DNA of 64,000 bases from a virus (IMGVR_UViG_3300038300_000071:32001-96000); one strand, 5' to 3'. Positions 22,101 to 56,532 are shown, numbered from the stretch's first letter. Made by a program: numbers and translations. The notes: generated by a model from the sequence alone, not told the origin.

Positions 22101-22216
22101 CAGTGTATGGCTGATATTGGTTAGGCTCGTCGATATTTATGATTACTAAATACACATTTAATGTGGCGGTGATTTCTATGATCTTCGATATTTGGGTTCG
22201 ATTCCCGAAACACTGA
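22101..22216 (+). ncRNA. tRNA-like RNA with expanded anticodon arm
   Basis: cagtgt/acactg acceptor, D arm, GGTTCGATTCC T arm, roughly 60 nt central domain. Confidence 0.6.
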
Positions 22217-22242
22217 TAGTTTTGAAAAGAAGAGTAGTATAT

Positions 22243-22314
22243 GCGAAAGTAGCTCAATGGTAGAGCACCATCCTTCCAAGTTGGTTGTTGCGGGTTCGAG
22301 TCCCGTCTTTCGCT
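22243..22314 (+). tRNA. tRNA-Gly(TCC)
   Basis: GCG start, ct-TCC-aa, U73. Confidence 0.95.
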
Positions 22315-22604
22315 TTTAGAATTATAAATTGGAGAATCCATAATGGGAATATTTTATTCATATTGCACAAGATGCAATAAACAACTTAGGTATTTTATTG
22401 AGTATGGTCATGATGGAATCGAGTGTGATGTATGTTCTCATTTCAATATCGATAGTGATGTAAAGGGAACACTTTTTAAATATAACAATGGCAGGCCGGA
22501 TGGCGCATTGAATATATGGGGAGAAGAAATAATGGAAAGTAAAATGAAACGAAAGATAAAACATAGCATTTAAAGCCTTCTAAGTTGGGGAGGCAAAAAT
22601 TAAT

Positions 22605-22678
22605 GCCTCCGTAGCTCAGTTGGTTAGAGCATCTGACTTTTAATCAGAATGTCATGGGTTCGAATCCCATCGGGGGCA
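22605..22678 (+). tRNA. tRNA-Lys(TTT)
   Basis: tctga-ct-TTT-aa-tcaga. Confidence 0.95.
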
Positions 22679-23141
22679 CTTTCAAAAGGGAGACGTTCGT
22701 GAACAACATAGATTATTTAAGAGAAGATTTAGCTCGGATTCTAGATAAGAGCAGTAGTCTGAGTTGTGAGTTTCTAAGTGCAGTTCTTGAGTTGAATATT
22801 ATGCGAAGAGAATTTAAAGTTTCGATGGGATCTAATTTTGATGGATTCTTGACAATAGGGTATAAAGAAGTATATAAATAAAAACAAAGAGGAAATAACA
22901 TGGTTTACAGTTTTAATTTTAGTGCGGAAGATGAAGTAGACGTAATTCAAGTTTTGGAAACTAAAAATGGATACGTTTACTTTCAAGATGGTGATAGAAA
23001 GGGAAGAATAGAAGAAAAGTTCTTTGCGATGAACTTTACCCATGTTGAAGCTCCACTGGTATAATAAAAAGAAACAATATATAAAAAGGACTTACTTTAA
23101 ATAGTAAGTCCTTTTTTTGTATAGTAATTATAAAATATACT

Positions 23142-23678
23142 ATGGTGGAAGAAATGTCGGTTCGTAAAGTAATATGGTTAACGGGAATGTCTGGTGCGGG
23201 AAAATCAACTATATCTTCAATGCTTGAAGAGAAGCTTTTGGTTAAAGGGTATAGTGTGAAAATACTAGATGGAGATGAAGTCAGGGAAAATCTAACTTCT
23301 GATCTTGGCTTTAGCAAGAAGGACAGAGATGAAAATGTAAAAAGAATTTCTTATGTGGCTAAATGTATATGCGATGTTGACGGGGTGGCCATAGTTGCTG
23401 CTATTTCTCCATACAAGGATGCAAGGCAGAAGGCTATATCTTTAATTGGTGAAGATAACTTTTTAGGAGTTTTTGTCAAGTGTGATATTGATACGCTGAT
23501 AAGCAGAGATGTTAAGGGTTTGTATGAAAAGGCTATTCGTGGTGACATTCCAAATTTCACAGGAATAAGCGATCCTTATGAAGATCCTTTAGGTTTTGAA
23601 GTTGTTTGTAATACAGCGGTAGAGACTATTGAAGAATCGGCAAACAAGATAATCAAGAAGTTGGAAGGTAAATCCTAA
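23142..23678 (+). CDS. cysC: adenylylsulfate kinase
   Basis: WLTGMSGAGKST, LDGDEVR, ISPY, RDVKGLY, FTGISDPYE. Confidence 0.95.
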   Translation: MVEEMSVRKVIWLTGMSGAGKSTISSMLEEKLLVKGYSVKILDGDEVRENLTSDLGFSKKDRDENVKRISYVAKCICDVDGVAIVAAISPYKDARQKAISLIGEDNFLGVFVKCDIDTLISRDVKGLYEKAIRGDIPNFTGISDPYEDPLGFEVVCNTAVETIEESANKIIKKLEGKS

Positions 23679-23981
23679 GTTTTTTTATATTCTAGCCGTA
23701 TGTAAACAGCTAGGGTCTAAAGATGTCAAGAAAAGTTATCATAAGTCTTTTTAAGTGCAGGCTAGATTGCAATCCTTTTGAGACGATAGAGAATAAGCCA
23801 GACGGGGCGTTGATGATATGGGGATTGAGCAGCATTCCAAGCTGTTATGATTTTCAGAATTATTTAGATTATATCAGAGATGCAATCGATATGAATAAAT
23901 CAAAGTAAAATTCTTCTTTAAAAATTATATTTCTTTTATAAAATTCATATTAGTAAATAAATGCTAACGTGGAGTTTTTAA

Positions 23982-24980
23982 ATGGGATATATCAAGAATC
24001 CTTCTGATAATGGTCAGTTTTGGAGAGAATCAGCGGCTAATGATAGCGCCTCTGTTTGGCATGGTTTTGATAGTAAAAATAACGGTAAAGACAAATTTTT
24101 CAAATCAGAAACATTGCCAAATAATCCAGATACCTTGAAAGAAACTGGAACTGTTTCTTCTAGTGGCGATAGGCTGTTGGCTGGTGTTTATGGAGATATT
24201 CCAAGTGTTTCTCTTTGGACTCCTGAGTCTATTATTACTGACGTTTGGTTTGATGCTTCTGATTCTAGCACCATTACTGAAATTGGGGGCCGAGTTAGTC
24301 AGTTGGATGACAAGAGTAATAATGCTGTACCTCAGAATATTGCTCAAGGGGTTGGATCGGAGCAGCCACAGACAGGAGTTGACACTTTAAATGGTTTGAA
24401 TGTGCTTACATTCGATGAGGCTTTCGATGAGGGTTTACAAAAGAATGGATGGGATAACATCGGTAAAGCGGGTAGTTTTTCTGTCTTTACTGTTGGGAAG
24501 ATGACGTCGAGTACAAATGGAAGCTTCCTAAACCTTCAAGATGATATGCATACTTACAGAAATAGATTTGATCCATATGGAAAGAGAACGTCGAGCAGTG
24601 TTCCAAAGTCCGTCAGTTATACAGAGCCAAGCTCGGCATACATTCTTAACGGAAATGCAAGATATGATGTGAGTCACACACTTCCTGACAGTTATTTCAA
24701 CGTTTTCATAAATGGTACACAAGAGGGTGTTAATGCCTTCTTCGACAATCCATTGCCAGAGAATGCCCCCAGTCCAAGGCTTGCAATGATGACTGCCAAC
24801 AATCCTGCCATTACAAATAGTGGAATAGTTGCAGAAGTTATAATCACCGAGGATATTGATGAAGTGTCTAGACAGAGAGTGGAAGGCTATTTGGCTTGGA
24901 AGTGGGGATTGGTAGACAGTCTTCCATCTAATCACCCTTATAAAAATAAACCTCCATACATTACTAGCGGAAACTTATAG
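23982..24980 (+). CDS. variable-core paralog 1 (putative LamG/ConA-like virion adhesin)
   Basis: Conserved N-term MGYIKNPSDNGQ...KSETLPN and C-term EGYLAWKWG...HPYK. Confidence 0.7.
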   Translation: MGYIKNPSDNGQFWRESAANDSASVWHGFDSKNNGKDKFFKSETLPNNPDTLKETGTVSSSGDRLLAGVYGDIPSVSLWTPESIITDVWFDASDSSTITEIGGRVSQLDDKSNNAVPQNIAQGVGSEQPQTGVDTLNGLNVLTFDEAFDEGLQKNGWDNIGKAGSFSVFTVGKMTSSTNGSFLNLQDDMHTYRNRFDPYGKRTSSSVPKSVSYTEPSSAYILNGNARYDVSHTLPDSYFNVFINGTQEGVNAFFDNPLPENAPSPRLAMMTANNPAITNSGIVAEVIITEDIDEVSRQRVEGYLAWKWGLVDSLPSNHPYKNKPPYITSGNL

Positions 24981-25043
24981 AGATTAGAGATATTTCTTTT
25001 ATAAAATTCATATTGGTAAATAAATGCTAATATGGAGATTCAA

Positions 25044-25985
25044 ATGGGATATATCAAGAATCCTTCTGATAATGGTCAGTTTTGGAGAGAATCAGCGGCT
25101 AATGACAGCGCTTCTGTTTGGCATGGTTTTGATAGTAAGAATAATGGTAAAGACAAATTTTTCAAATCAGAAACATTGCCAAATAATACAAAGGCTTTAA
25201 GTGAGTCTGGGTCTATTGCTTCTAGTGGTAATAGATTAATTGCTGGGGTTTATGGAGATCAAGCTTCTCTTCCTGCAAGTCTTTGGAATCCTTCTCTGAT
25301 GACATCTGTGGGTTGGTACGATGCTGATGATAGTTCTACAATTACAGAGTCTGCTGGAGCTATTAGCCAATGGGATGATAAGTCTGGGAATGACAATCAT
25401 GCTGTTCAGGGCGTTGGAAGCAAACAGCCAATTTACAATGCAAGTGATCCCGTGTTCGGTGGAAAGCCTTCCATATTGGGCGTTTTGGGTGATTATTTAG
25501 AAACTCCATCTATGTCAATAAATAGAATGTATTTAACTTTATATTTGGACGGTGTGGCAACGGCATGGCCAAATCATAATGCGGTAGTATCAGGGCCTTC
25601 TTTCCGTTTAACGGGTAGAGTTGGTGATGTTCACGTATGGGATGGCCCTAGAGACAATAAGAATTTTGATTTTAATGGAAGTACATTTAGGGATGGAAGT
25701 ACTGTTGATGTTAATTACGATCCAACTGGTTTGCCGATGGCGGGTGACATCTTTAGGATAAACGCTGAAAGCACAAAGACTCAAGTTTGGAGGTTGATGG
25801 GGAATACTCAAACATATACAACTTGGCATGGTGGTTTGGCAGAGGTGATATTTACAGACGGATCAGAGGATTTCAACACACAGCAAAAAATAGAAGGTTA
25901 CCTTGCTTGGAAGTGGGGATTTGTGGACAAGTTTCCAGCTGAGCATCCTTACAAGTCAGCTCCTCCATATATAGATGCTTATTAA
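25044..25985 (+). CDS. variable-core paralog 2
   Basis: Same termini; true start is MGYIK at 25044. Confidence 0.7.
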   Translation: MGYIKNPSDNGQFWRESAANDSASVWHGFDSKNNGKDKFFKSETLPNNTKALSESGSIASSGNRLIAGVYGDQASLPASLWNPSLMTSVGWYDADDSSTITESAGAISQWDDKSGNDNHAVQGVGSKQPIYNASDPVFGGKPSILGVLGDYLETPSMSINRMYLTLYLDGVATAWPNHNAVVSGPSFRLTGRVGDVHVWDGPRDNKNFDFNGSTFRDGSTVDVNYDPTGLPMAGDIFRINAESTKTQVWRLMGNTQTYTTWHGGLAEVIFTDGSEDFNTQQKIEGYLAWKWGFVDKFPAEHPYKSAPPYIDAY

Positions 25986-26054
25986 GATCATTTAAAAATT
26001 ATATTTCTTTTATAAAATTCATGTTAGTAAATAAATGCTAATATGGAGATTTAA

Positions 26055-26996
26055 ATGGGATATATCAAGAATCCTTCTGACAATGGTCAGTCTTGGAGAG
26101 AATCAGCCGCTGATAATTCGGCTATCCGTTGGCATGGTTTCGATAGTAAGAATAATGGTAAAGACAAATTTTTCAAATCAGAAACATTACCAAATGATCC
26201 AGACGCACTTGTTGCTGCTGGAGTCAATGCTTCTAGCGGTGATAGACTATTGGCTGGTGTTTATGGAGATATTCCAAGTGTTAATCTTTGGACTCCTGCT
26301 GGAGTCGTTACAGAACTTTGGCTTGATGCCACCGATGCTTCAACTATTACAGAATTATCTGGATCTGTGAGTCAGTGGGATGATAAGAGTGGTAGCGGTA
26401 ACGACTTCCCTCAGGGAAATGCATCCAGACAACCTATAACGGGAGTAAGAACTCTCAATGGCCTAAATGTTCTCGATTTCGATGGTGGTGATAGCATGCA
26501 AAGAGGGAGTTTGGCGAATGTGGCGAATGACTTCATTATGGTAGGAGTTTGGGATGTAGATTCGGGCGCAACACTGTTTTCAGAAACAGGTTCTCCTCAG
26601 GCTTGGAATGCAACAACTGCTGGTCTCACTACGCAATTGGATGGCACTATGCTTTACTCTGGAGGCACGATAAGCGGAGCAACTGTCGTTTCTTTTGATA
26701 TGAATCCTACGGGCCTTAATGCAGAGGCTTTTGTAAACGGAGAAAGTCAGGCAATACTTGCTCTGACGCAAAGCCTTGGAAATAGTACTGCCCGTATAGC
26801 TGCGAACTTTGTTGGCGGTTCTAATGTAGTTGGAGGAATGGGTGAAATGGTTATCTCCGATGACCGATCAGTAGAAACTCGTCAAAAGATCGAAGGATAC
26901 TTGGCTTGGAAGTGGGGTACGGAATCTGATCTTCCAGTTGGACATCCGTATAAGAACAAACCTCCATATATCACTAGTGGAAGTTTATTAGTTTAA
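26055..26996 (+). CDS. variable-core paralog 3
   Basis: Same conserved termini. Confidence 0.7.
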   Translation: MGYIKNPSDNGQSWRESAADNSAIRWHGFDSKNNGKDKFFKSETLPNDPDALVAAGVNASSGDRLLAGVYGDIPSVNLWTPAGVVTELWLDATDASTITELSGSVSQWDDKSGSGNDFPQGNASRQPITGVRTLNGLNVLDFDGGDSMQRGSLANVANDFIMVGVWDVDSGATLFSETGSPQAWNATTAGLTTQLDGTMLYSGGTISGATVVSFDMNPTGLNAEAFVNGESQAILALTQSLGNSTARIAANFVGGSNVVGGMGEMVISDDRSVETRQKIEGYLAWKWGTESDLPVGHPYKNKPPYITSGSLLV

Positions 26997-27054
26997 AAGG
27001 ATATTTCTTTTATAAAATTCATGTTGGTAAATAAGTGCTAATATGGAGATTTAA

Positions 27055-27996
27055 ATGGGATATATCAAGAATCCTTCTGACAACGGACAGTTTTGGAGAG
27101 AATCAGCGGCCAATGATAGTGCTTCTGTTTGGCACGGTTTTGATAGTAAAAATAATGGTAAAGATAAATTTTTCAAATCAGAAACATTGCCAAATGATCC
27201 AAAATCTTTAATTGCATCTGGAGCTATTGCTTCTAGTGGCGATAGATTTTTAGCTGGTGTTTATGGTGATCTTCCAAAAGTTTCTCTTTGGACTCCTGCA
27301 AAAATAGCCACATCTCTTTGGCTGGATGCCTCTGATCCTGCTACAATAACTGAGTCGGTAGGATCGGTCAGTCAGTGGGATGATAAGTCTGGAAATGGTA
27401 ACAATGTAATACAAGCCTCAGGAGTCAATCAGCCAGAAACTGGAGTAAGAGATATTAATGGATTAAACGTTCTTGATTTTGATGGCTCGGACAGCATGAC
27501 AAGAGGGGCTTTGGCGAGCAGATCTGATGATTTCATTGTGGTTGGCGTTTGGTATGTGGATTTTGTTATTTCAAGTCGCAGGAAGAATACGATGTTCGCA
27601 CAATCTGGGATATCTCAAGATTGGAATATGACAACCTCCGATATAGTCTTGCAGAGTGATGGATCTGATGCTTATTCTGGAGGCGTTTTGGCTGGTGTTA
27701 GTAGTATTATTTCTTATGATGTTAATTTTTCTGGATTGAATACTGAGGCTTTTATTAATGGTTCCAGTGAAGCGAATGTTGTGATGTCTCAGTCAGTAGG
27801 AAATTCCACAACAAATATTGGCATAGGGTTTACCGCTTCGAATTTCAATTTTTTCGGAGGTATGGGAGAGATTATTATCTCTAACGATAGATCTGTATCA
27901 ACTCGTCAAAAAATAGAAGGCTATCTTGCTTGGAAGTGGGATCAAGTTTCCAAGCTTCCTGCTGATCATCCTTATAAGAATGTACCACCCTGTTGA
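27055..27996 (+). CDS. variable-core paralog 4
   Basis: Same conserved termini. Confidence 0.7.
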   Translation: MGYIKNPSDNGQFWRESAANDSASVWHGFDSKNNGKDKFFKSETLPNDPKSLIASGAIASSGDRFLAGVYGDLPKVSLWTPAKIATSLWLDASDPATITESVGSVSQWDDKSGNGNNVIQASGVNQPETGVRDINGLNVLDFDGSDSMTRGALASRSDDFIVVGVWYVDFVISSRRKNTMFAQSGISQDWNMTTSDIVLQSDGSDAYSGGVLAGVSSIISYDVNFSGLNTEAFINGSSEANVVMSQSVGNSTTNIGIGFTASNFNFFGGMGEIIISNDRSVSTRQKIEGYLAWKWDQVSKLPADHPYKNVPPC

Positions 27997-28041
27997 TGGT
28001 GGTTGACTGAATCTTTATAAATACTAACATGGAGTTTTTAA

Positions 28042-28986
28042 ATGGGATATATCAAGAATCCTTCTGACAATGGTCAGTCTTGGAGAGAATCAGCGGCCAA
28101 TGATAGCGCTTCTATCTGGCATGGTTTCGATAGTAAGAATAATGGTAAAGACAAATTCTTTAAATCAGAAACATTGCCCAATGGTACAAAGGCTTTAAGT
28201 GAGTCTGGGTCTATTGCTTCTAGTGGTAATAGATTATTAGCTGGTGTTTATGGTAATCAATCTTCACTTCCTGCAAGCCTTTGGACTCCTAACAATATAA
28301 CTACATCAGCTTGGTTTGATGCTTCTGATGCGTCAACTATCACAGAGTCTGCCAATAAAGTTTCTCAATGGGATGATAAAAGTGGAAATAGCAAACACGC
28401 TGTGCAAGCAACTGGATCTCAACAACCGACCTATAAGCCTACCGATGCTAATATGAATGGGATGGGTAGTATCGGAGTTACAAGTAATACTGGAGCGAAA
28501 GGATTAGAAGTACCATCATTCGGAGCGAAGATTTGCTATACAGTCATTAGAAATGACAACGCCAACTTCTCATCATTCGATGTGCTGCTTGCAGGTGCGC
28601 TTGATAGATACCTTGTTCGTGGTAGTTCAGGAACTCCAGACTTCTATACTATCGGAACTCTTGAGTTCAATGATTTTACATATAAGAATGGTTCCACGGT
28701 AAGCACGGCCTTAAACGTACTTCCAATGCCGACAGCAACGATTTTCAAATTTGAAAGTGCCGCAATAAGAGAGCAGACATGGAGTTTCGGGTTTGGTAAT
28801 CAATGGGCTGGCAATAATAGAACATGGGATGGTGCTTATTCAGAGTTTATATTTACAGATGGAACTGAGGACTTATCTACACAGCAAAAGATCGAAGGAT
28901 ACCTAGCTTGGAAATGGGGAACAGAAGCTTCATTGCCTGTTAGTCATCCTTACAAGTCAGCTCCTCCATATATAGATGCTTATTAA
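28042..28986 (+). CDS. variable-core paralog 5
   Basis: Same conserved termini. Confidence 0.7.
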   Translation: MGYIKNPSDNGQSWRESAANDSASIWHGFDSKNNGKDKFFKSETLPNGTKALSESGSIASSGNRLLAGVYGNQSSLPASLWTPNNITTSAWFDASDASTITESANKVSQWDDKSGNSKHAVQATGSQQPTYKPTDANMNGMGSIGVTSNTGAKGLEVPSFGAKICYTVIRNDNANFSSFDVLLAGALDRYLVRGSSGTPDFYTIGTLEFNDFTYKNGSTVSTALNVLPMPTATIFKFESAAIREQTWSFGFGNQWAGNNRTWDGAYSEFIFTDGTEDLSTQQKIEGYLAWKWGTEASLPVSHPYKSAPPYIDAY

Positions 28987-29044
28987 TAGGATATTTCTTT
29001 TATAACTTTGTATTAGTAAATAAATGCTAACGTGGAGATTTTAA

Positions 29045-30076
29045 ATGGGATATATCAAGAATCCTTCTGACAATGGTCAGTTTTGGAGAGAATCAGCGGC
29101 TAATGATAGCGCTTCTATCTGGCATGGTTTCGATAGTAAGAATAATGGTAAAGACAAATTTTTCAAATCAGAGACATTGCCAAATGATCCAGCCGCACTT
29201 TCTGCCGCTGGAGTTAATGCTTCCAATGGAGATAGATTTTTAGCTGGTGTTTATGGAGATCAGTCTTCACTTCCTGCAAGCCTTTGGAATCCCGCTGAAA
29301 TATCCACTGAAGCTTGGTTCGATGCCAATGATGCTTCAACTATTACAGAATCAGCAGGAGCTGTAAGTCAGTGGGATGACAAGTCTGGCAATGTAAGAAA
29401 TCTTATTAACGCAACTGGCGTTCAACAGCCAATGACTGGAATTAGAACAATAGGCGGTTTAAACGCCCTAGATGCCGACGGGGTTACTCAACACCTATAT
29501 AACATTACAAACTTTGCATTTCCTGCCAGTGGAAACTTTATGGTGTTTGCGGTTGCAGTAGTAGACTCTTGCAGTGACAGAAATCAAGCTATATGGGCTT
29601 GGGATGATGATGTTGATATACAACTTGATAGTGCGCAAAACATTAATGAGTTCAGAGGTCGATTGTTTAACACTGACCCGACAAATCAAAACTTGCTATA
29701 CTCAACTAGCGACCCTGCACCATCTGGCTCAGTTATCGGACTAGACACGATGTGGACTACGGTCATGGACTTCACCGCAACGGAGAGTCACTTATATCGG
29801 AACGGACTTAATAGTGTGCTTAATCCAACAAAACTATATGCTAACAAGGTAACTAGTACTGGATTGCAACAGTTTACTGCGTTTCTAGGTGGATTCCCTA
29901 TTGCGTTTACTCATTTGCTTGATGGCGCAATAGGAGAGTTGCTTATGGTAGAAGGAACTGACACTATTACTCAACAAAAGATGGAAGGCTATCTTGCTTG
30001 GAAGTGGGGACTAGTCGCTAAACTCCCATCTGGTCATCCTTACAAGTCAGCTCCTCCATATATAGATGCTTATTAA
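29045..30076 (+). CDS. variable-core paralog 6
   Basis: Same conserved termini. Confidence 0.7.
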   Translation: MGYIKNPSDNGQFWRESAANDSASIWHGFDSKNNGKDKFFKSETLPNDPAALSAAGVNASNGDRFLAGVYGDQSSLPASLWNPAEISTEAWFDANDASTITESAGAVSQWDDKSGNVRNLINATGVQQPMTGIRTIGGLNALDADGVTQHLYNITNFAFPASGNFMVFAVAVVDSCSDRNQAIWAWDDDVDIQLDSAQNINEFRGRLFNTDPTNQNLLYSTSDPAPSGSVIGLDTMWTTVMDFTATESHLYRNGLNSVLNPTKLYANKVTSTGLQQFTAFLGGFPIAFTHLLDGAIGELLMVEGTDTITQQKMEGYLAWKWGLVAKLPSGHPYKSAPPYIDAY

Positions 30077-30641: not shown

Positions 30642-30714
30642 GAACAATTGGCCGATTGGATATAGGCGCAGGATTGCAAACCCTGTTAGGCGAGTTCGAT
30701 TCTCGCATTGTTCT
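30642..30714 (+). tRNA. tRNA-Cys(GCA)
   Basis: tt-GCA-aa loop, U73. Confidence 0.9.
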
Positions 30715-30718
30715 CTAA

Positions 30719-30808
30719 GGAATGGTATAACGAAATTGGTATCGTCGCTGGTTGCTAACCAGTTCAGCAGGTTAAATGGCTGTGTGGGTTCGAGTCCCAC
30801 TCATTCCG
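30719..30808 (+). tRNA. tRNA-Ser(GCT)
   Basis: gctgg-tt-GCT-aa-ccagt, long variable arm, G73. Confidence 0.9.
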
Positions 30809-30828
30809 CTTTAATGAAGAAGTTTGAA

Positions 30829-30905
30829 GTGTATATTTGTCCAAGGTGGCGATATGTTACGCATTGTAGTTCAGGAACTAGGTTCGAGTCCTAGCTTATA
30901 TGCAC
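30829..30905 (+). ncRNA. tRNA-like RNA without a canonical anticodon loop
   Basis: gtgtatat/atatgcac stem and ctagGTTCGAGTCctag T arm; no 7-nt anticodon loop. Confidence 0.5.
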
Positions 30906-30913
30906 TTTTTTTT

Positions 30914-31245: not shown

Positions 31246-31320
31246 GTATTCATAGCTTAATGGTAAAGCGCAGTAGCAAATTGTATGAGCAAGATGTTGG
31301 TTCGATTCCAGCTGAATACG
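31246..31320 (+). ncRNA. tRNA-like RNA with aberrant anticodon arm
   Basis: Perfect acceptor, D and T arms; anticodon arm closes only a 5-nt loop. Confidence 0.55.
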
Positions 31321-31339: not shown

Positions 31340-31421
31340 GTCGTCGTATATGTCTAAGGAGGACATCCAGTCTGTAAAACTGGCGCTTTGAGCTCGGTGG
31401 GATCGTTACCCACAGGCGACA
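31340..31421 (+). tRNA. tRNA-Tyr(GTA)
   Basis: ccagt-ct-GTA-aa-actgg, variable arm. Confidence 0.85.
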
Positions 31422-36627: not shown

Positions 36628-36821
36628 CGATGGATAACTCAATTGGTATGAAGTGAAGAACAGAAAGATATTCTAGAATGTCTTCCTGTAAGTAGCGTAA
36701 TTATTAGATTACTTTTTAGTAGGGTTTGATTCCCTAACTTGATTCGTCAAGATTGTAATCTAATTAGAGTGCCTAGAGTTGTATCTAGGAAGTGGAGGTT
36801 CGAGTCCTTCTCCATCGGCCA
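36628..36821 (+). ncRNA. tRNA-like RNA with roughly 115 nt D-loop insertion and 8-nt anticodon loop, ending GCCA
   Basis: cgatgga/tccatcg acceptor, actc...gagt D stem, T arm, encoded CCA. Confidence 0.6.
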
Positions 36822-37382: not shown

Positions 37383-37440
37383 CTTAGCAAGTGAAATGAT
37401 TAATGTGTGATAAAGAATATTATAGATGGAAAGTAGTTCT

Positions 37441-37517
37441 GGGGTTAGAAGGTTTATAAGAAGTAAAAAACCGCATGCGGCATATTTCTTATCTGAGTTC
37501 AAGTCTCAGTAGCTCCA
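37441..37517 (+). ncRNA. D-arm-less tRNA-like RNA resembling a tmRNA tRNA-like domain
   Basis: GGGGTTA/TAGCTCC-A with G3:U70, unpaired D region, long stem, T arm. Confidence 0.5.
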
Positions 37518-37519
37518 TT

Positions 37520-37649
37520 AGTTCTAAGAGTACGATGGAAAGTACAGGCAGTGAGTAAGTCCTAAGATGCAGAAGTCGCGAACTGCTGAGAATTCTAGCG
37601 AACGATTCCCCGAAAGGGATGGATATGGGTTCAAATCCCATTGGAACTA
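37520..37649 (+). ncRNA. tRNA-like RNA with multibranched central domain
   Basis: agttcta/tggaact acceptor, gtac/gtac D arm, atgggTTCAAATcccat T arm. Confidence 0.55.
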
Positions 37650-38114: not shown

Positions 38115-38666
38115 ATGTTTGTAGAATCAGGTGATCATGTTCATAGTTTTGGTTGGATTGGAGTTCCTATTGAAGGAACTCAAAAGGATATGCTGTTGTC
38201 GATAGCGAATAAGATAGACAAGGAAGATTTATTCGAAGAAGACGATGATACTGGAATCGAAGAAGATAGCCATGTGACAGTTCTTTATGGAGTTCATGAT
38301 AAACAGAATTTCAAAGTAAAGGCATTGCTTGGATCTGTATTGCAAATGAATGGAGAGCTTGTAGGACTTCATATATTTGAAAATGAAAGATATGATGTTT
38401 TGGTCGTTAAGGTTGAAAGCGAAGACCTGAAAGATTTAAACAAAAAGTTGAAAGACGGTCTTAAGTATACTAATGACTATCCAGAATATAAGGCACATGC
38501 TACAGTCGCATACCTGAAGTCTGGAACAGGGAAAAAGTATGTAGAAGATTTTAAGAAAGTCGATTGCGTGTTTGATAGAGTTTTTTACAACAATTCTGAC
38601 AATACGCACAACGAGAAGATTGAGCTTAAGAAGAATGACATTGATGAAATGTTGAAAGGAATTTAA
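38115..38666 (+). CDS. 2H phosphoesterase, Acb1/T4 gp57B-like
   Basis: HVTVLYG and YKAHATVAY HxT motifs. Confidence 0.75.
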   Translation: MFVESGDHVHSFGWIGVPIEGTQKDMLLSIANKIDKEDLFEEDDDTGIEEDSHVTVLYGVHDKQNFKVKALLGSVLQMNGELVGLHIFENERYDVLVVKVESEDLKDLNKKLKDGLKYTNDYPEYKAHATVAYLKSGTGKKYVEDFKKVDCVFDRVFYNNSDNTHNEKIELKKNDIDEMLKGI

Positions 38667-41913: not shown

Positions 41914-42252
41914 GTTTGAACCTGTTTAATGGGTGATAATTGCACTACAAATACTTAGAGTGAAAACAGCGGATATTTAGACATATTGAGAAAATTATAG
42001 GATGAAAAACCTGTATGTAAGATGTTAGTTTGCAGTTAATTGTAATCATATCAGATTTTCCTAAAAATTTCCTATTATTATAAGTAGTATTCATACCGTC
42101 CAAGGCCTGCGCCATTTATTAGCTCCATATCTTTCGTAAAAAAATAAGAAATCTAGGACACTGAGATAAAATATATCAATAGACAAATTAAAATCCTCAA
42201 CAACGCAGTGCATGTTAGATTTAATAAGAGAAAATTCGTACAGGAGAGAAGA

Positions 42253-43068
42253 ATGCAGTTGATAAAAAAAACAAACGAACACGTTAGAAGATTAAAATCT
42301 CGACTTACTGGGATTGATTATCAGCTTGTCTTTGGTGGGGCTGTCAGAGATTCATTAATGGAAAGAAGTTACCAAGACGTAGATTTATTTTTCACAGACA
42401 GGACAAAATATATAAACACTGTGGGAAGATTGTGTGAAGAGGGATATTCGATAGTAGAGTTGTGCAGGAGAAAGTGGTCAAAGAATTTCATTTGTTTGTT
42501 CGGCAGGTATGAGAAAGAAAACCGTTTTAATAAATCGGGAAAAGAATTTGTAGATGTGATGTTGTTTGATTGCACAGAGGAAGAGTTAATTGCAGATTTC
42601 AAGTTGAGTTTTGATTTTGGTGTAAACGTGTGTTATATGAAAGATGGCGAAATTTATGCAAGTGACAGGTGCTTAAGTGAAATAGAGGATGGTGGTGTTT
42701 TAGAATTAGTGTCTGATAAAATTTCAATAGGGAACTGTATTGTAAGGGCTGAAAAGTTTCGAAGCAGAGGTTTTAAAGTCGGATCTAGTGTGATTGGATA
42801 TATTATAAAAGAAATAGAGCTGATGGAGGATTCTCCAGAGGATTACGAAAGTTCGAGATATATTAAGGTTCATGGTGGATATGGAACCTATTGTAATATA
42901 AAAGGCAAAAAGTTATATAGAGATTTTTTTAAACTAATTGACGAGGATACATTAATATTGGCAATGATGAGCAGTAGTGAAAAGATATTAGATTATTCTA
43001 AAAATAATCACAATAAGAAAATCAATAAGAAAGGTGTAGTTTCTAAAATAAGGAATTTGTTTGCATGA
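42253..43068 (+). CDS. CCA-adding/poly(A) polymerase-family nucleotidyltransferase
   Basis: FGGAVRD-x8-DVDLF, FDFGVN. Confidence 0.7.
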   Translation: MQLIKKTNEHVRRLKSRLTGIDYQLVFGGAVRDSLMERSYQDVDLFFTDRTKYINTVGRLCEEGYSIVELCRRKWSKNFICLFGRYEKENRFNKSGKEFVDVMLFDCTEEELIADFKLSFDFGVNVCYMKDGEIYASDRCLSEIEDGGVLELVSDKISIGNCIVRAEKFRSRGFKVGSSVIGYIIKEIELMEDSPEDYESSRYIKVHGGYGTYCNIKGKKLYRDFFKLIDEDTLILAMMSSSEKILDYSKNNHNKKINKKGVVSKIRNLFA

Positions 43069-47094: not shown

Positions 47095-47180
47095 TGGATG
47101 ATGCACGACTGTCTTAAGGCAGTTAGGATAAGGCGCTCCGATATAAAGGAGAGATTCGTTGGTGAAAATCCAGCCATCTA
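47095..47180 (+). ncRNA. degenerate tRNA-like RNA
   Basis: tggatg/catcta stem, three hairpins, 8-nt central loop. Confidence 0.4.
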
Positions 47181-47205
47181 TTTTTTGAAGAAGAAAGAAA
47201 TTTAT

Positions 47206-49059: not shown

Positions 49060-49169
49060 GCCGGAGTAGCTTAATTGGTTAGAGCATAAGTGAAGCGCAT
49101 CATCGGAGACTAGTTAATCCTTTGTTGCTAGTATCTTAAAGGTTGCAGGTTCAAGTCCTGCCTCCGGCA
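49060..49169 (+). ncRNA. tRNA-like RNA with roughly 40 nt insert replacing the anticodon loop
   Basis: Perfect acceptor, D and T arms; no 7-nt anticodon loop. Confidence 0.65.
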
Positions 49170-49191: not shown

Positions 49192-49294
49192 GCGGGAGCC
49201 TGTTGGTTAGGGCTTAGTGAAGAGTATTTTGATGCACCTGGTTAAATCATAATGCAAGTAGCTTTGTACGGGGGTTCGAATCCCTCCTTCTGCT
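49192..49294 (+). ncRNA. tRNA-like RNA with elongated central stem
   Basis: gcgggag/cttctgc acceptor, gggggTTCGAATccctc T arm. Confidence 0.5.
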
Positions 49295-51108: not shown

Positions 51109-51156
51109 ATAATCTAATGTTAGTGTTAATTGTTAGTTATTTAATGGGATTGGAAA

Positions 51157-52186: not shown

Positions 52187-52267
52187 AAATTTTTAACTTC
52201 TTTGTTGTAGTATATATGGATGTCCGTGGAAGCGGATAAAAATATAAATAAACAAGGAAGAATAAAA

Positions 52268-52979: not shown

Positions 52980-53735
52980 ATGCGGAAGAAGAAGAGAGCG
53001 GAAGAATCGTCTTTAAAGAATACTGGTGGAAAAAATAATCCTGTTGGAGAAGACTGGAAAAAGCCTTGGTGTACTTTTAAAGGCAATGATAACGGACTTA
53101 AACAGAAGCAATATTGCGATTTAATAGGTAGCAGCGAAATAACTATATGTGCTGGCCCAGCTGGAACGGGGAAATCATATATCTCAATATACAAGGCGTT
53201 GGATTTGCTATGGAAGAAGGGTAATGGATATGATAAGATAACTTTATTTAAGCCAGTAGTTGAAGCTGATGAGAAGATAGGATTCCTACCTGGCAGCGTC
53301 GAAGATAAGATTTCCGTATATTCAAGTTCTTCTTTGAGCATAATTGACAAGATAATCGGGAAAGAGAAGAGATTGGAATTGGTATCAATGGGAATTATTG
53401 AATGTAGAGCTTTGGCCTACATAAGAGGAGATAGTTTTGATCATACCATTCTAATTCTAGAAGAGGGGCAGAACTCTAGCCCAAGGCAGATGAAAACGTT
53501 ATTGACGAGAATTGGTGAAAAGACTAAATATATTATCAATGGAGATATGGATCAGTCTGACAGATTCAAAGATTACACAAAAACAGGCCTTTATGATGTG
53601 GTTAATAGGCTAAAGGGAATTGAAGGTGTTGGAACGTTTGAGTTTGAAATAGGCGACATCGTTAGGAATCCGATTATCAGTAAAATTCTTGAAAGGTATG
53701 AAGATGACTATGATGATGGAAGAATGTTTGAATAA
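52980..53735 (+). CDS. phoH: PhoH family ATPase
   Basis: GPAGTGKS, GFLPG, YIRG, LTRIGE, GD..Q.D, DIVRNP. Confidence 0.93.
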   Translation: MRKKKRAEESSLKNTGGKNNPVGEDWKKPWCTFKGNDNGLKQKQYCDLIGSSEITICAGPAGTGKSYISIYKALDLLWKKGNGYDKITLFKPVVEADEKIGFLPGSVEDKISVYSSSSLSIIDKIIGKEKRLELVSMGIIECRALAYIRGDSFDHTILILEEGQNSSPRQMKTLLTRIGEKTKYIINGDMDQSDRFKDYTKTGLYDVVNRLKGIEGVGTFEFEIGDIVRNPIISKILERYEDDYDDGRMFE

Positions 53736-53759
53736 TATTTAAAAAAAAGAAAAAGCAAG

Positions 53760-53788
53760 TGGACAATATTAGTTTCATGCGCTATAAT
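53760..53788 (+). promoter_or_regulatory. sigma70-type promoter
   Basis: TGGACA-17 nt-TATAAT upstream of the odd tRNA. Confidence 0.65.
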
Positions 53789-53859
53789 AAAGACATAAGC
53801 TTCAATATATAAAGAATCAGGCAAAATAAAAAAGTGATTAATTGAGAGGCTTATGTTTT

Positions 53860-53946
53860 GGATATATAGCTCAGCGGCCAGAGCAGAAGGATTCTAACCC
53901 TTTGGTAGTCGAAAGGCAGGCGCAGGTTCGATTCCTGTTATATCCT
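53860..53946 (+). tRNA. tRNA with ATTCTAAC loop: possible amber suppressor (CTA) or 8-nt-loop tRNA, long variable arm
   Basis: ggatata/tatatcc acceptor, D and T arms; gaagg-attctaac-ccttt. Confidence 0.6.
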
Positions 53947-53974
53947 TTTCTTATATTCATTGCGGCGACGCTAG

Positions 53975-54115
53975 TACATGCGGACTAAAGCGAACGGTGG
54001 AGCACCTCTAAAGTGTTCTTGACAAGCAAGGAAATGTACTGCTTGTCAAATATAAGATCGAGGCTTGATTTTCTTGTTGCGGAAAATCTGATCGCAAGCG
54101 GTAGAAGTCCGAAGT
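53975..54115 (+). ncRNA. unidentified structured RNA
   Basis: cggact/agtccg closing stem enclosing three hairpins and a candidate pseudoknot. Confidence 0.45.
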
Positions 54116-54265
54116 AACATTATTTTTTAACGTAAGTAAACAAAAGCAAAGTAAGGAAAAGAAAATGAAAAAAGTATTCTTGTAGATCAAAAGAGGCCCT
54201 CCGGCATTAATTCGGTGTTTAAAAGTTTTTAGAGTTGAATTAATTAAATATATCGGAGAAGAAAA

Positions 54266-54634
54266 ATGATTACTATTGAAAAAAATGAAACAGAAGTAAG
54301 TGAAATAGAAGTAAACAAGATTAGAGCAGTTAAGGCTAACTTGAAGACGAAGATTAAAGACCAAGCTGTTCTTCAGAAGAGAGCCAAGTCTAATAATAAA
54401 GAAGTACAGCGTGAAGTAACTAAGTGTGGATGGAATTCAGATCTTTACAAGAGAAGAATGATCAATTTGTCCTACGACATTACGCTAACCCACATTCTTT
54501 ATAATCGCCTAAGAAATAGACCTCCTCATACAGGATCTGTCGAAAGCGATAATTCATACATGTCTACGTATGGAGATTACTCAAATATAAAAAATGATCT
54601 AGAGTCTAGATTCTCAATAAGCTTGGGAGTTTAA
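54266..54634 (+). CDS. hypothetical phage protein
   Basis: GGAG RBS, 122 aa. Confidence 0.6.
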   Translation: MITIEKNETEVSEIEVNKIRAVKANLKTKIKDQAVLQKRAKSNNKEVQREVTKCGWNSDLYKRRMINLSYDITLTHILYNRLRNRPPHTGSVESDNSYMSTYGDYSNIKNDLESRFSISLGV

Positions 54635-54635
54635 G

Positions 54636-54962
54636 ATGGAATCTAGAATGTATATCTTAGTCAATAAGTCGTTGACCAAATCTCAAAGAATACCTCAATC
54701 ATCTCATGCAGTGGCAGAATTTATGCATACTCATGGGTCTGACAAAAAGGTTAAGACTTGGGTGGAAGATCACAGAACGATGGTTGTCCTTGAATCTGAC
54801 TTTAGCAATATGGATGACATATTAAATACAGTCGAAAAGGATGGATATAAGGCCAGATCTTTTAGAGAGCCTGATTTGAACGATGTGGTGACTGCTATTG
54901 CTTTTGAACCTATGACAAGGCAGGAAGGCGGAAAGTATTTTTCAAGATTAAAATTGGCGTAA
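54636..54962 (+). CDS. peptidyl-tRNA hydrolase PTH2-like protein
   Basis: MYILV..L...Q..HA, T.VVL, F.EPDL...TAIA. Confidence 0.7.
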   Translation: MESRMYILVNKSLTKSQRIPQSSHAVAEFMHTHGSDKKVKTWVEDHRTMVVLESDFSNMDDILNTVEKDGYKARSFREPDLNDVVTAIAFEPMTRQEGGKYFSRLKLA

Positions 54963-56303
54963 TGAAGCATTGGAGAGGCTTTACGGCCTCTCTTTTCTTT
55001 TTAAAGGAGTAAAGATGAAAAAAGAAAATTATGATAAGTTGGTAGAAGAATTTGTCGATCTTGAAGATTTGGTTTATGGTCATATTGAAAGGTATAAGGA
55101 GTTCTATGGCGATGGGTGTTGCCATGTCGGTATGGATTCTTTTGATGAATGTACTGTAGAACTTAGCGGAGTTGAGACATGGAGGTATGGAGGTCGAGAG
55201 GAGCATTTCTTAACTTTAGAAGTTGATGATCTGTTTAGCGAAGAGAGAATGAATGTTAAGCTTAAAAAGAGAAGTGATGAGATTATAAAAGAGAAGAATA
55301 AGAAGAAGAGAGCGGAGCAAAGAAAAAAGAGGGAAAAGATTAAAGCTGCTCGTAAGTTGCTAAAGGATAATAACGAATTATGAATGTAAGAGAGCTGATA
55401 AACGAGTTGAAGGGATGCGATCCTGATGCAATAATTTGCACTGGGGGAAATGAGTCTATAAATTATATAGAGTGTTTACCTTCTTATTATGATGGAAGAC
55501 TTATGCATGTAATGCAGGATGAATGTGGAAACCCTGTTAAGATATCGATGAGGAGTGGTGGATCAAAGGTCAAAATGCATTCGTATGACATTGAGGATGT
55601 TATTTTTGATAATCCAAGAATAGAAGTTGAAACTGGGGATGGCTTTAACTCATCTTTAAGTACTTATGCTGAGTGGAGACAGGAAGGTTTAGATTATGAA
55701 AGAAATGCAAGAAAAAAGTTTTATCATTACGGTTATTTAGAAAAGTATGACGACATGTTGTTTATATGGGATGTGGTAGAATTATGAGGAGAAGAGATAT
55801 GAAGAAGGAATTTATAAAAGTAAAGACGGATGGCTTTGAGAATCTAACAGAGGGTAAGATTTATTCAGTTTTGTCTTGCGATGTGTGGGATATGGCCCTA
55901 GTTTATCTTTTTTTTAATGATGTGGGGAAGTTGGTTCAGCATCATGACTGGGAGGATTATTGGGAAGATAACTTTGAGTTAATTAACGAGGAGATGACAG
56001 ATAGGGAGGTGATGATATTTAACAGTGGAATATCTCACGGACTTTGTATAGCAAAGACAGATGTTGACGAAGAGTATGGAATGAAATGCTTTGAGAGGGG
56101 GAAGAAGAAGCGCAAGAGTCTGAAGGAGAAAAAAGGATATCTTTGGTTGGACGATGGGGTTGAGAAGATAAGGAGTAATTTAAATAGTCTTTACAGTGAG
56201 AAGACAGATCATTTCTATGACAGTGGTGATAAAGATGGTATAGTTTGATTTAGAAGTTGAAAAATAAATAATGACGTGTATTGTAATGTAAGAAAAAATA
56301 TAA

Positions 56304-56532
56304 GCCTTGGTAGCTCAATTGGCGTAGAAGGTGAATTATGTATTCGGTGTTTAATAATTGCAATTGTTAATCGGAGAATATATATGAAGCATCTGCACTC
56401 CAACTAATATAAAGGTTTAAGAGTTGGTTATAGAGCGCTGAATTGTGAAGACTGTGAGAGAAAGGCCTTTTAAAGTATCTTATAGAAGTAGCAAATATTC
56501 AGAGGTTTGAGGTTCGAACCCTCACCAAGGCA
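56304..56532 (+). ncRNA. giant tRNA-like RNA with insertions in both D loop and anticodon loop
   Basis: gccttgg/ccaaggc-A acceptor, gctc...gagc D stem, ctgaat...attcag stem, tgaggTTCGAACcctca T arm. Confidence 0.65.

What the first reader, a model, noticed from the sequence alone, without database searches (positions are those of the whole stretch)
22101..56532. Family of tRNA-shaped RNAs with intact acceptor/T arms but replaced anticodon or D loops
About nine elements (22101, 30829, 31246, 36628, 37441, 37520, 47095, 49060, 49192, 56304) retain a paired acceptor stem and T arm but lack a 7-nt anticodon loop or carry 40-115 nt inserts. Preserved stems with altered loops argue against random decay, and the inserts are too short for group I introns. 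Inference: they could be uncleavable decoys for anticodon nucleases or tRNA-sensing defences, tRNA scaffolds that RNase P and RNase Z release as stable cargo RNAs, or protein-spliced tRNAs. Most lie inside the attenuated operons and would be co-induced.
Basis: partly seen in the sequence, partly recalled or inferred. Interest (0 to 1): 0.72.

Follow-up and report, generated by a model that had tools for sequence, protein, structure and literature searches.

The report
Conserved anticodon-less tRNA-shaped phage RNAs
A large uncultured phage carries, among its 29 ordinary tRNA genes, about ten genes for tRNA-shaped RNAs that cannot decode; eight are kept in a related phage with compensating base changes, and four share a small hairpin built on a classic sarcin-ricin-type RNA loop, so they are working small RNAs of unknown job, not broken tRNAs.

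Summary
All ten places have a T arm joined to an acceptor-type stem. A strict scan gave 33 hits on the + strand and none on the - strand.

Eight elements recur in a relative that is about 80% identical in DNA; the other two (22101, 31246) do not. The element at 56304 recurs in three lineages.

Their helices are kept through compensatory changes:
- 56304: 6 pairs changed on both sides
- 49060: 7
- 49192: 4
- 36628: 12

The new result is a shared module. Four elements (36628, 49060, 49192, 56304) carry a 44-48 nt hairpin framed by GUGAAG and AGUA. These letters are invariant in 11 copies and match the AGUA/GAA sarcin-ricin (loop E) core.

The inserts are not introns:
- Removing them leaves no anticodon loop.
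- The 202 kb held show no RNA ligase, RtcB, splicing endonuclease or Ro60 gene.

The elements at 22101 and 31246 look like decaying tRNA copies.

Best reading: tRNA-scaffolded stable RNAs, matured like tRNAs, whose hairpin docks an unknown partner. The closest precedent is phage T4 RNAC/RNAD.

This scan has noted tRNA-shaped RNAs with Ro60-linked modules in other phages. Their motifs are absent here.

The parts
22101..22216 (+). E1: 116-nt tRNA-like RNA. It has a 6-bp acceptor, a D-like hairpin, a roughly 60-nt extended arm in place of the anticodon arm, and a canonical T arm. Lineage-specific.
   Evidence: MFE fold, z -1.99. ARAGORN calls it only with the intron option. In relative R1 the same slot holds a canonical tRNA-Gly(TCC), L131:6510-6582, and only the T arm aligns.
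30829..30906 (+). E2: 78-nt element with a long acceptor-type stem, one hairpin and a T arm, followed by a T run.
   Evidence: 96% identical in R1 (L042:3395-3472). The stem change U.G to C-G keeps the pairing, and the stem is 11 bp perfect in R1. Thermodynamic z is only -0.11.
31246..31320 (+). E3: 75-nt tRNA with perfect acceptor, D and T arms but no anticodon stem-loop. Lineage-specific, probably a decaying tRNA copy.
   Evidence: Rfam tRNA 47.1 bits, with 21 nt unaligned in place of the anticodon arm. No ortholog in R1. Its best match there is a canonical tRNA-Asn(GTT).
36628..36821 (+). E4: 191-nt tRNA-like RNA plus an encoded CCA. The D stem ACUC/GAGU encloses about 110 nt that include the module. 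The anticodon stem carries an 8-nt loop.
   Evidence: Fold z -2.79. The R1 ortholog is L042:8870-9047. 12 of 42 pairs changed on both sides, including 6 of 7 acceptor pairs.
36653..36696 (+). Module copy in E4: GUGAAGA, hairpin, AAGUAGC (44 nt).
   Evidence: The inner helix ACAG/CUGU becomes AUAG/CUAU in R1.
37441..37517 (+). E5: 77-nt RNA with an alanine-type acceptor (GGGGUUA/UAGCUCC, G3.U70, A73), no D arm, one long hairpin and a T arm.
   Evidence: Fold z -2.94, MFE frequency 0.51. 93.5% identical in R1 (L042:9512-9588). All 3 substitutions that fall in predicted stems keep the pair.
37520..37649 (+). E6: 130-nt RNA lying 2 nt after E5. It has a 7-bp acceptor, a 74-nt irregular arm, a small GAAA-capped hairpin and a T arm.
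   Evidence: 90% identical in R1 (L042:9592-9721). Acceptor pair 2:71 changes G-C to A-U, and a hairpin pair changes C-G to A-U.
47095..47181 (+). E7: 87-nt RNA lying 2 nt after tRNA-His. It has a 6-bp acceptor, no D arm, a 7-bp hairpin with a tetraloop in the anticodon-arm place, a long variable arm and an off-consensus T loop.
   Evidence: 95% identical in R1 (L042:17752-17838). The 3 changes that fall in predicted stems all keep the pair.
49060..49169 (+). E8: 110-nt tRNA body with perfect acceptor, D and T arms. The anticodon loop is replaced by the module, whose apical loop GACUAGUUAA is invariant.
   Evidence: Rfam tRNA 51.8 bits with a 44-nt insert. Orthologs are L042:19013-19124 and L048:893-1002. 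26 pairs, 97.4% paired, 7 changed on both sides, reached by 1 of 500 shuffles.
49090..49135 (+). Module copy in E8, the variant GUGAAGC ... UAGUAUC (46 nt).
   Evidence: The pair next to the GAA/AGUA core goes from U.U to G-C in R1.
49192..49294 (+). E9: 103-nt tRNA body whose G3.U70 acceptor pair is kept in 3 lineages. The anticodon arm is replaced by the module, with a conserved apical loop CACCYGGUUAA.
   Evidence: Orthologs are L042:19142-19246 and L048:1141-1245. 29 pairs, 96.6% paired, 4 changed on both sides. The weak tmRNA hit of 17 bits lies below the 47-bit cut-off.
49217..49262 (+). Module copy in E9 (46 nt).
   Evidence: The inner helix sequence differs wholly among the three lineages but stays paired.
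56304..56532 (+). E10: 229-nt cloverleaf standing directly before the DHFR gene. It has a 7-bp acceptor, a D stem GCUC/GAGC enclosing about 107 nt, an anticodon stem CUGAAU/AUUCAG enclosing the module, and a T arm.
   Evidence: Fold z -3.76, reached by 0 of 200 shuffles. Orthologs are L037:7613-7843, L038:1449-1677 and L041:7644-7861. 53 pairs, 97.6% paired, 6 changed on both sides, reached by 0 of 500 shuffles.
56445..56492 (+). Module copy in E10 (48 nt).
   Evidence: The 8-bp inner helix has 3 pairs changed on both sides. The apical stretch GAAAGGCCUUUUAAA is invariant.

Best explanation
Eight of the ten elements are real, conserved genes for tRNA-shaped RNAs that do not decode. They lie in or beside the phage's tRNA operons, on the same strand, with tRNA-like spacing.

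They keep the parts of a tRNA that the maturation enzymes read: a 7-bp acceptor stem stacked on a T arm, and often the D arm. I infer that they are cut out by RNase P and the 3' trimming enzymes, given a CCA tail and kept as stable small RNAs.

The anticodon loop is deliberately absent. It is closed off or replaced by a cargo hairpin.

In four of them (36628, 49060, 49192, 56304) the cargo is one shared module: a 44-48 nt hairpin whose base is an internal loop with the invariant letters GAA facing AGUA. That is the sequence of the sarcin-ricin (loop E) motif. Each gene has its own conserved apical loop.

I infer that this module is a docking platform for a protein or RNA partner. On that reading these RNAs act as tRNA-body mimics that bind or titrate a factor, possibly a host factor that handles tRNA.

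Shown: conservation, covariation, the shared module, and that the inserts are not introns. Inferred: the processing pathway. Guessed: the partner and the decoy role.

The elements at 22101 and 31246 are more likely decaying tRNA duplicates.
For: - Strand and motif statistics: 33 strict hits on the + strand against 0 on the - strand. T-loop word 44 against 11.2 expected.
- Orthologs in R1 (JAAHTG010000035.1), R2 and R3 contigs. Element identity is 72-96%, against about 80% for the neighbouring genes.
- Covariation: E10 has 6 pairs changed on both sides with 97.6% of cells paired, reached by 0 of 500 shuffles; slid controls give 35-54% paired. E8 has 7, E9 has 4, E4 has 12, including 6 of 7 acceptor pairs, and E6 has 2.
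- Module: GTGAAG, 10-60 nt, AGTAGC occurs 3 times in 202 kb, all inside E4, E9 and E10, with total lengths 44, 46 and 48. The 7-mers GTGAAGA and AAGTAGC occur 35 and 16 times in 202 kb, which I estimate gives about 0.14 chance co-occurrences. E8 holds a 46-nt variant.
- In an alignment of 11 module copies, G, GAAG and AGUA are invariant while the inner helices differ. AGUA/GAA is the canonical sarcin-ricin sequence (PMC1865062).
- Not introns: in E8 and E9 nothing resembling an anticodon arm remains outside the module.
- Precedent: T4 RNAC and RNAD lie in its tRNA cluster. RNAC has a T arm and a closing stem.
Against: - There are no expression, end-mapping or binding data.
- The phage and its host are uncultured.
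- Covariation rests on only 2-4 sequences per element.
- The MFE z-scores of E2, E6 and E9 are near zero.
- The module was not found with a T arm in IMG/VR or in cultured phages. Its recurrence is so far confined to one phage lineage and could partly reflect shared descent of paralogs.
- The sarcin-ricin fold is read from sequence only.
- No partner protein was identified. The neighbouring small zinc-ribbon ORFs have no family match.
- The phage genome shows no excess of sites complementary to the apical loops.
Confidence: 0.55

Rival explanations
1. They are partner RNAs of a Ro60/Rsr-type ring protein: tRNA-shaped Y RNAs whose grafted hairpin is the protein's docking helix. This scan has noted such RNAs in other phages.
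For: The general architecture, a tRNA body with a module on the anticodon arm, resembles earlier scan notes e1-4037503, e1-5762004 and e1-5747609. Bacterial and phage Y RNAs do mimic tRNA (PMC4201824). The contig is only 62% complete, and the host could supply Rsr.
Against: There is no TROVE/Ro60 match in the 202 kb at E<=1 and no RtcB. The published motif GNCGAA is absent from the + strand of every element. The ACnGCAA handle of the earlier notes is absent from all elements. Rfam YrlA hits fall only on ordinary tRNAs and stay far below the cut-off.
Confidence: 0.12
2. They are processing punctuation. The tRNA-like folds exist only so that RNase P and RNase Z cut the long operon transcripts and mRNAs at these points, like plant mitochondrial t-elements. 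The RNA itself has no later role.
For: E8/E9 and E10 lie between protein genes; E10 ends 22 nt before the DHFR start codon, and this order is kept in three lineages. The acceptor and T arm are the best-kept parts. t-elements are an established precedent (PMC1920247, listed).
Against: Punctuation needs only the acceptor/T minihelix. It does not explain the invariant GAA/AGUA module, the conserved apical loops, the compensatory changes in cargo helices, or elements lying between tRNAs that already give cut sites (E2, E4-E7).
Confidence: 0.12
3. Some are charged with an amino acid and used without decoding. E5 and E9 carry the alanine identity pair G3.U70. They could act as tmRNA-like or AlaRS/EF-Tu-binding mimics, or as donors for a non-ribosomal transfer.
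For: E5's acceptor GGGGUUA/UAGCUCC with A73 is nearly that of bacterial tRNA-Ala; this rests on established knowledge that AlaRS reads G3.U70 and ignores the anticodon. G3.U70 is kept in E9 in three lineages while G5.U68 becomes G-C. A tRNA-like RNA in a distant relative (L022:1050-1177) also has G3.U70. E9 gives a weak tmRNA hit.
Against: Only 2 of 10 elements have G3.U70, and it may be a relic of descent from tRNA-Ala. The tmRNA score of 17 bits is far below the 47-bit cut-off, and there is no tag reading frame. E9 has U73, not A73.
Confidence: 0.08
4. All are pseudo-tRNAs: duplicated tRNA genes decaying by insertions and deletions, without function.
For: E1 and E3 have no ortholog in R1; E1's slot there holds an intact tRNA-Gly. 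The R2 lineage has lost E4-E7. tRNA gene content changes fast among these phages.
Against: Eight elements are 72-96% identical across genomes whose genes are about 80% identical. Substitutions in stems keep the pairing, and many are compensatory. Four independent genes keep the same 11 module letters.
Confidence: 0.05
5. They are intron-bearing tRNA genes whose inserts are removed by proteins or by self-splicing to give decoding tRNAs.
For: ARAGORN with its intron option calls 22101, 49060 and 56304 as tRNAs with introns. A 2H phosphoesterase (LigT/Acb1-like) gene sits inside tRNA operon 3.
Against: After removing the insert no 5-bp stem with a 7-nt loop is left in E8 or E9. In E10 the remnant loop would have U at position 37. 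The ARAGORN anticodons are arbitrary (AAT, AGT, ATG). No Rfam intron or ribozyme hit appears at E<=10. Searches of the 202 kb found no Rnl1, Rnl2, RtcB or splicing endonuclease. All 20 amino acids are already served by the other tRNA genes: 19 by the 29 ordinary ones, and Tyr by an atypical tRNA-Tyr(GTA) gene at 31343-31421 that ARAGORN finds only at lowered thresholds. The 2H protein scores better as the anti-CBASS protein Acb1.
Confidence: 0.04

Closest known systems
Phage T4 RNAC (species 1) and RNAD (species 2) stable RNAs
   Same: They are small RNAs of 119-139 nt encoded inside a phage tRNA gene cluster, on the tRNA strand and next to tRNA genes. RNAC ends in a canonical T arm plus a closing stem. 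Their roles are unknown (PMC3014915).
   Different: I saw no sequence similarity. T4 RNAC lacks the GUGAAG/AGUA module, and its closing stem has two U.U mismatches. Here there are ten genes rather than two, several with complete D arms and perfect 7-bp acceptors.
YrlA-type bacterial and phage Y RNAs with Ro60/Rsr (Rfam RF02553; Chen et al. 2014, PMC4201824)
   Same: They are tRNA mimics with T and D arms that tRNA enzymes recognise, and they occur in phages. Like these elements, they combine a tRNA-like domain with a separate protein-docking helix.
   Different: In YrlA the RNA ends lie in the Ro-binding stem, not in the acceptor stem. The GNCGAA motif and a Ro60 gene are both missing here.
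Engineered tRNA scaffolds for expressing RNA in E. coli (the approach extended in PMC3753655)
   Same: The design principle is the same: an RNA of interest replaces the anticodon arm of a tRNA, so the cell processes and stabilises it like a tRNA. That description of the method is my own knowledge; I did not read the paper.
   Different: Those are laboratory constructs. These are natural, conserved phage genes.
Sarcin-ricin / loop E motif of rRNA (AGUA/GAA; PMC1865062)
   Same: The module's only invariant letters are GAA on the 5' strand and AGUA on the 3' strand, flanked by helices on both sides.
   Different: There is no GAGA tetraloop next to it as in the 23S rRNA loop, and the three-dimensional fold is untested. 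I know of no such motif placed on a tRNA body.
Plant mitochondrial t-elements and mascRNA-type tRNA-like processing signals
   Same: They are tRNA-like folds without an anticodon that RNase P and RNase Z cut out of longer transcripts.
   Different: Those lack conserved cargo modules, and they occur in eukaryotic systems.

Membership tests
tRNA (Rfam RF00005) | Score at or above the 29-bit gathering cut-off | tested here: inconclusive
   Met by E3 (47.1 bits) and E8 (51.8 bits) only. E6 scores 18.7 and the 3' part of E4 scores 15.4. The rest have no hit at E<=10.
tRNA (Rfam RF00005) | Anticodon arm with a 5-bp stem and a 7-nt loop | tested here: not met
   Absent in all ten.
Intron-containing tRNA gene | Removing the insert restores a canonical anticodon loop | tested here: not met
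   In E8 and E9 no arm remains. In E10 the remnant is UUAAAUA, with U at position 37.
Intron-containing tRNA gene | A self-splicing core, or a splicing endonuclease plus a ligase | tested here: not met
   No Rfam intron or ribozyme hit. PF01974, PF09414, PF09511 and PF01139 are absent from the 202 kb. The contig is only 62% complete.
YrlA / Y RNA with Ro60 | GNCGAA(N)G motif near the Ro-binding stem | tested here: not met
   No + strand match inside any element.
YrlA / Y RNA with Ro60 | Encoded next to a Ro60 (TROVE) gene | tested here: not met
   PF05731 has no match at E<=1 in the 202 kb. The rest of the genome and the host could not be tested.
YrlA / Y RNA with Ro60 | Rfam RF02553 score at or above 69 bits | tested here: not met
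   The best hits, 20-32 bits, lie on ordinary tRNAs.
tmRNA | Rfam RF00023 at or above 47 bits, or an ARAGORN tmRNA call with a tag peptide | tested here: not met
   E9 scores 17.2 bits. ARAGORN tmRNA mode found none.
T4 RNAC/RNAD-like stable RNAs of phage tRNA clusters | Non-tRNA small RNA gene inside a phage tRNA cluster, with a T arm and a closing stem | tested here: met
   Position and folds. T4 RNAC was folded for comparison. This is a likeness of kind, not homology.
T4 RNAC/RNAD-like stable RNAs of phage tRNA clusters | Accumulates as a stable processed RNA | not testable with these tools
   No expression data are available.
Sarcin-ricin (loop E, bulged-G) motif | AGUA facing GAA between two helices | tested here: met
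   Invariant in 11 of 11 module copies. The flanking pairs covary: U.G, U-A, U.U and G-C. Consensus taken from PMC1865062.
Sarcin-ricin (loop E, bulged-G) motif | S-turn three-dimensional fold | not testable with these tools
   Needs chemical probing or a solved structure.

The most novel reading that the evidence does not exclude
The module-bearing RNAs are a phage counter-defence. They would be tRNA bodies that display a sarcin-ricin-type loop where the anticodon should be, made together with the phage tRNAs when decoding slows. They would act as uncleavable decoys that soak up host immune nucleases or toxins that read tRNA shape or the ribosomal sarcin-ricin loop, for example VapC/PIN-type enzymes, anticodon nucleases or acceptor-end modifiers. 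They lie among the anti-defence genes Acb1 and a Gad2-like gene.
Probability: 0.15. Interest if true: 0.85.

Novelty: new variant of a known kind. Interest (0 to 1): 0.62.

Why it matters
Phage tRNA clusters have been known for fifty years to hold a few odd stable RNAs of unknown role, T4 RNAC and RNAD. This locus offers a much richer case:
- about eight conserved, structured, anticodon-less tRNA-shaped RNAs in one phage lineage;
- four of them sharing a compact, sequence-defined module that can be mutated, probed and used as bait.

It shows that entries flagged as pseudo-tRNA or intron-containing tRNA in phage annotation can be a separate class of non-coding RNA.

It also gives a natural counterpart of the engineered tRNA scaffold.

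If the partner proves to be a host defence factor, this would be a new kind of RNA-based counter-defence, tied to the phage's own tRNA supply.

Tried and rejected
- Near and distant BLAST of the region against cultured phages found nothing, and the elements alone gave only T-arm fragments.
- Relatives found through the sulfotransferase gene in IMG/VR (16 loci) proved unrelated phages without tRNAs. A 390-aa neighbour gave none.
- Terminase relatives at about 52% identity (G001, G003) have many tRNAs. These are mostly ordinary class II tRNAs with encoded CCA, too distant to align.
- The module-plus-T-arm pattern gave 0 hits in IMG/VR. In GTDB genomes it gave 81 scattered hits across unrelated taxa, which I take as chance and did not follow.
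- A search for targets complementary to the E8/E9 apical loops in the phage genome showed no excess.
- Rfam at E<=10 on the isolated elements gave no family other than tRNA, plus noise.
- PHROGs and Pfam on the small neighbouring ORFs gave no candidate partner.
- I considered E6 as a fifth module bearer (GUGAG ... AGUCGC here, AGUAGC in R1). I rejected it because the letters are not kept and the register differs.
- I rejected a kink-turn reading of the module because the 3' strand has no GA step.
- The script machine was lost. A planned census of non-canonical T arms in all relative loci was replaced by pattern searches.
- The metagenome records behind L037 and L041 could not be searched whole.

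Full report
SETTING

The window is bases 32001-96000 of a 202-kb IMG/VR phage contig estimated 62% complete. It has about 37% G+C, strong G-over-C skew and nearly all genes on the + strand. ARAGORN finds 29 tRNA genes, all on the + strand, in four clusters plus singletons. Earlier notes of this scan describe leader-peptide attenuators ahead of these clusters. I did not test that.

THE OBSERVATION

Rfam adds two tRNA hits that ARAGORN misses. One is 31246-31320 at 47.1 bits, with the anticodon arm unalignable. The other is 49060-49169 at 51.8 bits, with 44 nt in place of the 9 central model positions of the anticodon arm.

I scanned for a perfect 5-bp T stem, a consensus T loop, and a 7/7-paired acceptor directly after it. 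This gave 33 hits on the + strand and none on the - strand. Two of the 33 (30660-30901, 37435-37648) are chance upstream partners for a real T arm. The other three (22101, 30829, 47095) have a 6-bp acceptor, a 4-nt offset, or an off-consensus T loop.

The T-loop word GTTCRANNC occurs 44 times against 11.2 expected. Every + strand copy in the tRNA region is accounted for by a tRNA or a listed element, so the list is complete.

Unconstrained folding recovers the acceptor and T arm in nearly all elements. The z-scores run from -3.76 (56304), -2.94 (37441) and -2.79 (36628) to about 0 (30829, 49192). None has a 5-bp stem with a 7-nt anticodon loop.

RELATIVES

Cultured phages and IMG/VR gave nothing close. 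A metagenome scan with a neighbouring DUF2201 protein found contigs with about 90% protein identity. Exact-protein look-ups of homologues of the 2H phosphoesterase and the sulfotransferase then fetched the rest. The relatives are:
- R1: JAAHTG010000035.1, 152 kb, held as L131, L042 and L037, with 78-82% DNA identity to the window.
- R2: a lineage with fewer tRNAs, held as L044-L046, L041 and L038.
- R3: L048.

R1 keeps eight elements in the same order:

| Element | Identity in R1 |
|---|---|
| E2 | 96% |
| E4 | about 79% over its 5' half |
| E5 | 93.5% |
| E6 | 90% |
| E7 | 95% |
| E8 | 72% |
| E9 | 81% |
| E10 | 77% |

E10 is also in R2 (73-75%). E8 and E9 are also in R3 (76-78%).

E1 and E3 are not kept. 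E1's slot in R1 holds an ordinary tRNA-Gly(TCC), and E3 has no counterpart. R2 lacks E4-E7.

COVARIATION

| Element | Sequences | Pairs | Cells paired | Pairs changed on both sides | Shuffles reaching this |
|---|---|---|---|---|---|
| E10 | 4 | 53 | 97.6% | 6 | 0 of 500 |
| E8 | 3 | 26 | 97.4% | 7 | 1 of 500 |
| E9 | 3 | 29 | 96.6% | 4 | 25 of 500 |
| E4 | 2 | 42 | - | 12 | - |
| E6 | 2 | 36 | - | 2 | - |

- For E10 the slid controls give only 35-54% paired.
- For E8 the double changes include two in the acceptor and two in the T stem.
- For E9 the covariation score was reached by 2 of 500 shuffles.
- For E4 six of seven acceptor pairs changed: CGAUGGA/UCCAUCG against GGGGCUG/CGGCCCC.
- In E5, E7 and E2 every substitution that falls in a predicted stem keeps the pair.

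The sequence numbers are small, but the signal is consistent.

THE SHARED MODULE

The inserts of E4, E9 and E10 begin with GUGAAGA and end with AAGUAGC. In the whole 202 kb these 7-mers occur 35 and 16 times. The ordered pair within 60 nt occurs three times, only in these elements, spanning 44, 46 and 48 nt. I estimate about 0.14 such pairs by chance. E8 has a 46-nt variant, GUGAAGC ... UAGUAUC.

An alignment of 11 copies (four genes, up to four lineages) leaves G, GAAG and AGUA invariant, while the enclosed helices differ in sequence and stay paired. GAA facing AGUA between two helices is the canonical sarcin-ricin (loop E) sequence (PMC1865062). The pair that closes it covaries: U.G, U-A, U.U, G-C.

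Each gene keeps its own apical loop:
- CACCYGGUUAA in E9.
- GACUAGUUAA in E8.
- GAAAGGCCUUUUAAA in E10.

In E8, E9 and E10 the module sits on top of the anticodon stem. In E4 it sits in a D-loop insertion.

The module with a following T arm is absent from IMG/VR. Hits in bacterial genomes look like chance.

WHAT IT IS NOT

Not introns.
- Outside the module E8 and E9 have no anticodon arm at all.
- E10's remnant loop would have U at position 37.
- ARAGORN's "anticodons" are arbitrary.
- No intron or ribozyme family matches.
- The 202 kb show no Rnl1, Rnl2, RtcB or splicing endonuclease.

Not recognisable Y RNAs.
- There is no TROVE gene.
- There is no GNCGAA motif on the + strand of any element.
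- None holds the ACnGCAA handle described in earlier scan notes.

Not tmRNA.
- E9 scores 17 bits against a 47-bit cut-off.

Not generally pseudogenes, given the covariation. E1 and E3 probably are.

MECHANISM

What is kept is what RNase P, the 3' trimming enzymes and the CCA enzyme read: a 7-bp acceptor stacked on a T arm, often with a D arm that can form the elbow. This rests on established knowledge of tRNA maturation.

The elements sit 2-20 nt from tRNAs on the same strand. I therefore infer that they are excised and stabilised like tRNAs. This is the principle behind engineered tRNA scaffolds, and most likely behind T4 RNAC and RNAD, which lie in the T4 tRNA cluster and whose roles are still unknown.

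The anticodon loop is consistently closed or replaced, which argues for a non-decoding role. A conserved internal loop of a protein-binding type, together with gene-specific conserved apical loops, points to a docking function. I could not name the partner.

The neighbourhood holds the anti-defence genes Acb1 and a Gad2-like gene, plus a methylase. That gives weak support to a counter-defence role.

E5 and E9 carry the alanine identity pair G3.U70, kept in E9 across three lineages. Charging by AlaRS is therefore possible.

VERDICT

This is a real and conserved family of tRNA-shaped non-coding RNAs, with a new shared module. It is a new variant of a known but poorly understood kind. The function is open.

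Noticed in passing
window 53860-53946: ARAGORN calls this tRNA Pyl(CTA). It has a 5-bp anticodon stem with an 8-nt loop, AUUCUAAC. The loop is invariant in three lineages and the stem covaries (GAAGG/CCUUU against GGAGG/CCUCU). ARAGORN calls the R1 ortholog Arg(TCT), and R2 has lost the long variable arm. It could be an amber suppressor or a four-base (UAGA) decoder.
   Followed up: partly
window 31343-31421: The only Tyr(GTA) gene is a 79-nt tRNA with an off-consensus T loop (AUCGUUA). ARAGORN finds it only at lowered thresholds. R1 has a normal 85-nt tRNA-Tyr at L042:3929-4013.
   Followed up: no
window 38115-38666: A 2H phosphoesterase gene sits inside tRNA operon 3, between tRNA-Asp and tRNA-Gln. 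Pfam scores it as Acb1 (anti-CBASS, 2e-9) and as LigT-type 2'-5' RNA ligase (2e-6). It is conserved at 84-85% in R1 and R2.
   Followed up: partly
window 42208-43068: A nucleotidyltransferase with a weak poly(A) polymerase/CCA-enzyme head match. Its R1 homologue carries a precomputed Gad2 (anti-Gabija) hit. So the tRNA region doubles as an anti-defence island.
   Followed up: no
window 23982-30076: Six tandem paralogous ORFs of 313-343 aa with no Pfam match lie between tRNA clusters 1 and 2, in a stretch of raised G+C (0.40) and lowered skew. R1 has different genes here, including PspA and an ion-channel protein.
   Followed up: no
L048:1040-1128: Relative R3 has an extra tRNA-like gene between its E8 and E9. 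It is class II-like, with a GAAA tetraloop hairpin where the anticodon loop should be. It is absent from the window.
   Followed up: partly
L022:1050-1177: A distant relative (terminase 54% identical) has a 128-nt tRNA-like RNA with an alanine-type G3.U70 acceptor, a D arm, a 3-bp mini anticodon arm and a 60-nt arm in the variable position. Its z-score is -4.2. It lacks the module.
   Followed up: partly
window 36819-36821; L048:1003-1005; L042:19125-19127: CCA is encoded after E4 in the window and after E8 in R1 and R3. The ordinary tRNAs of these phages mostly lack an encoded CCA.
   Followed up: no
window 56322-56425: The D-loop insert of E10 holds its own conserved hairpin, with an invariant apical stretch UUUAAYAAUUGCAAKUGUU, and invariant single-stranded words UAUGAA and AUAAAGGUU. 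E4 also has UAUGAAG at the start of its insert.
   Followed up: no
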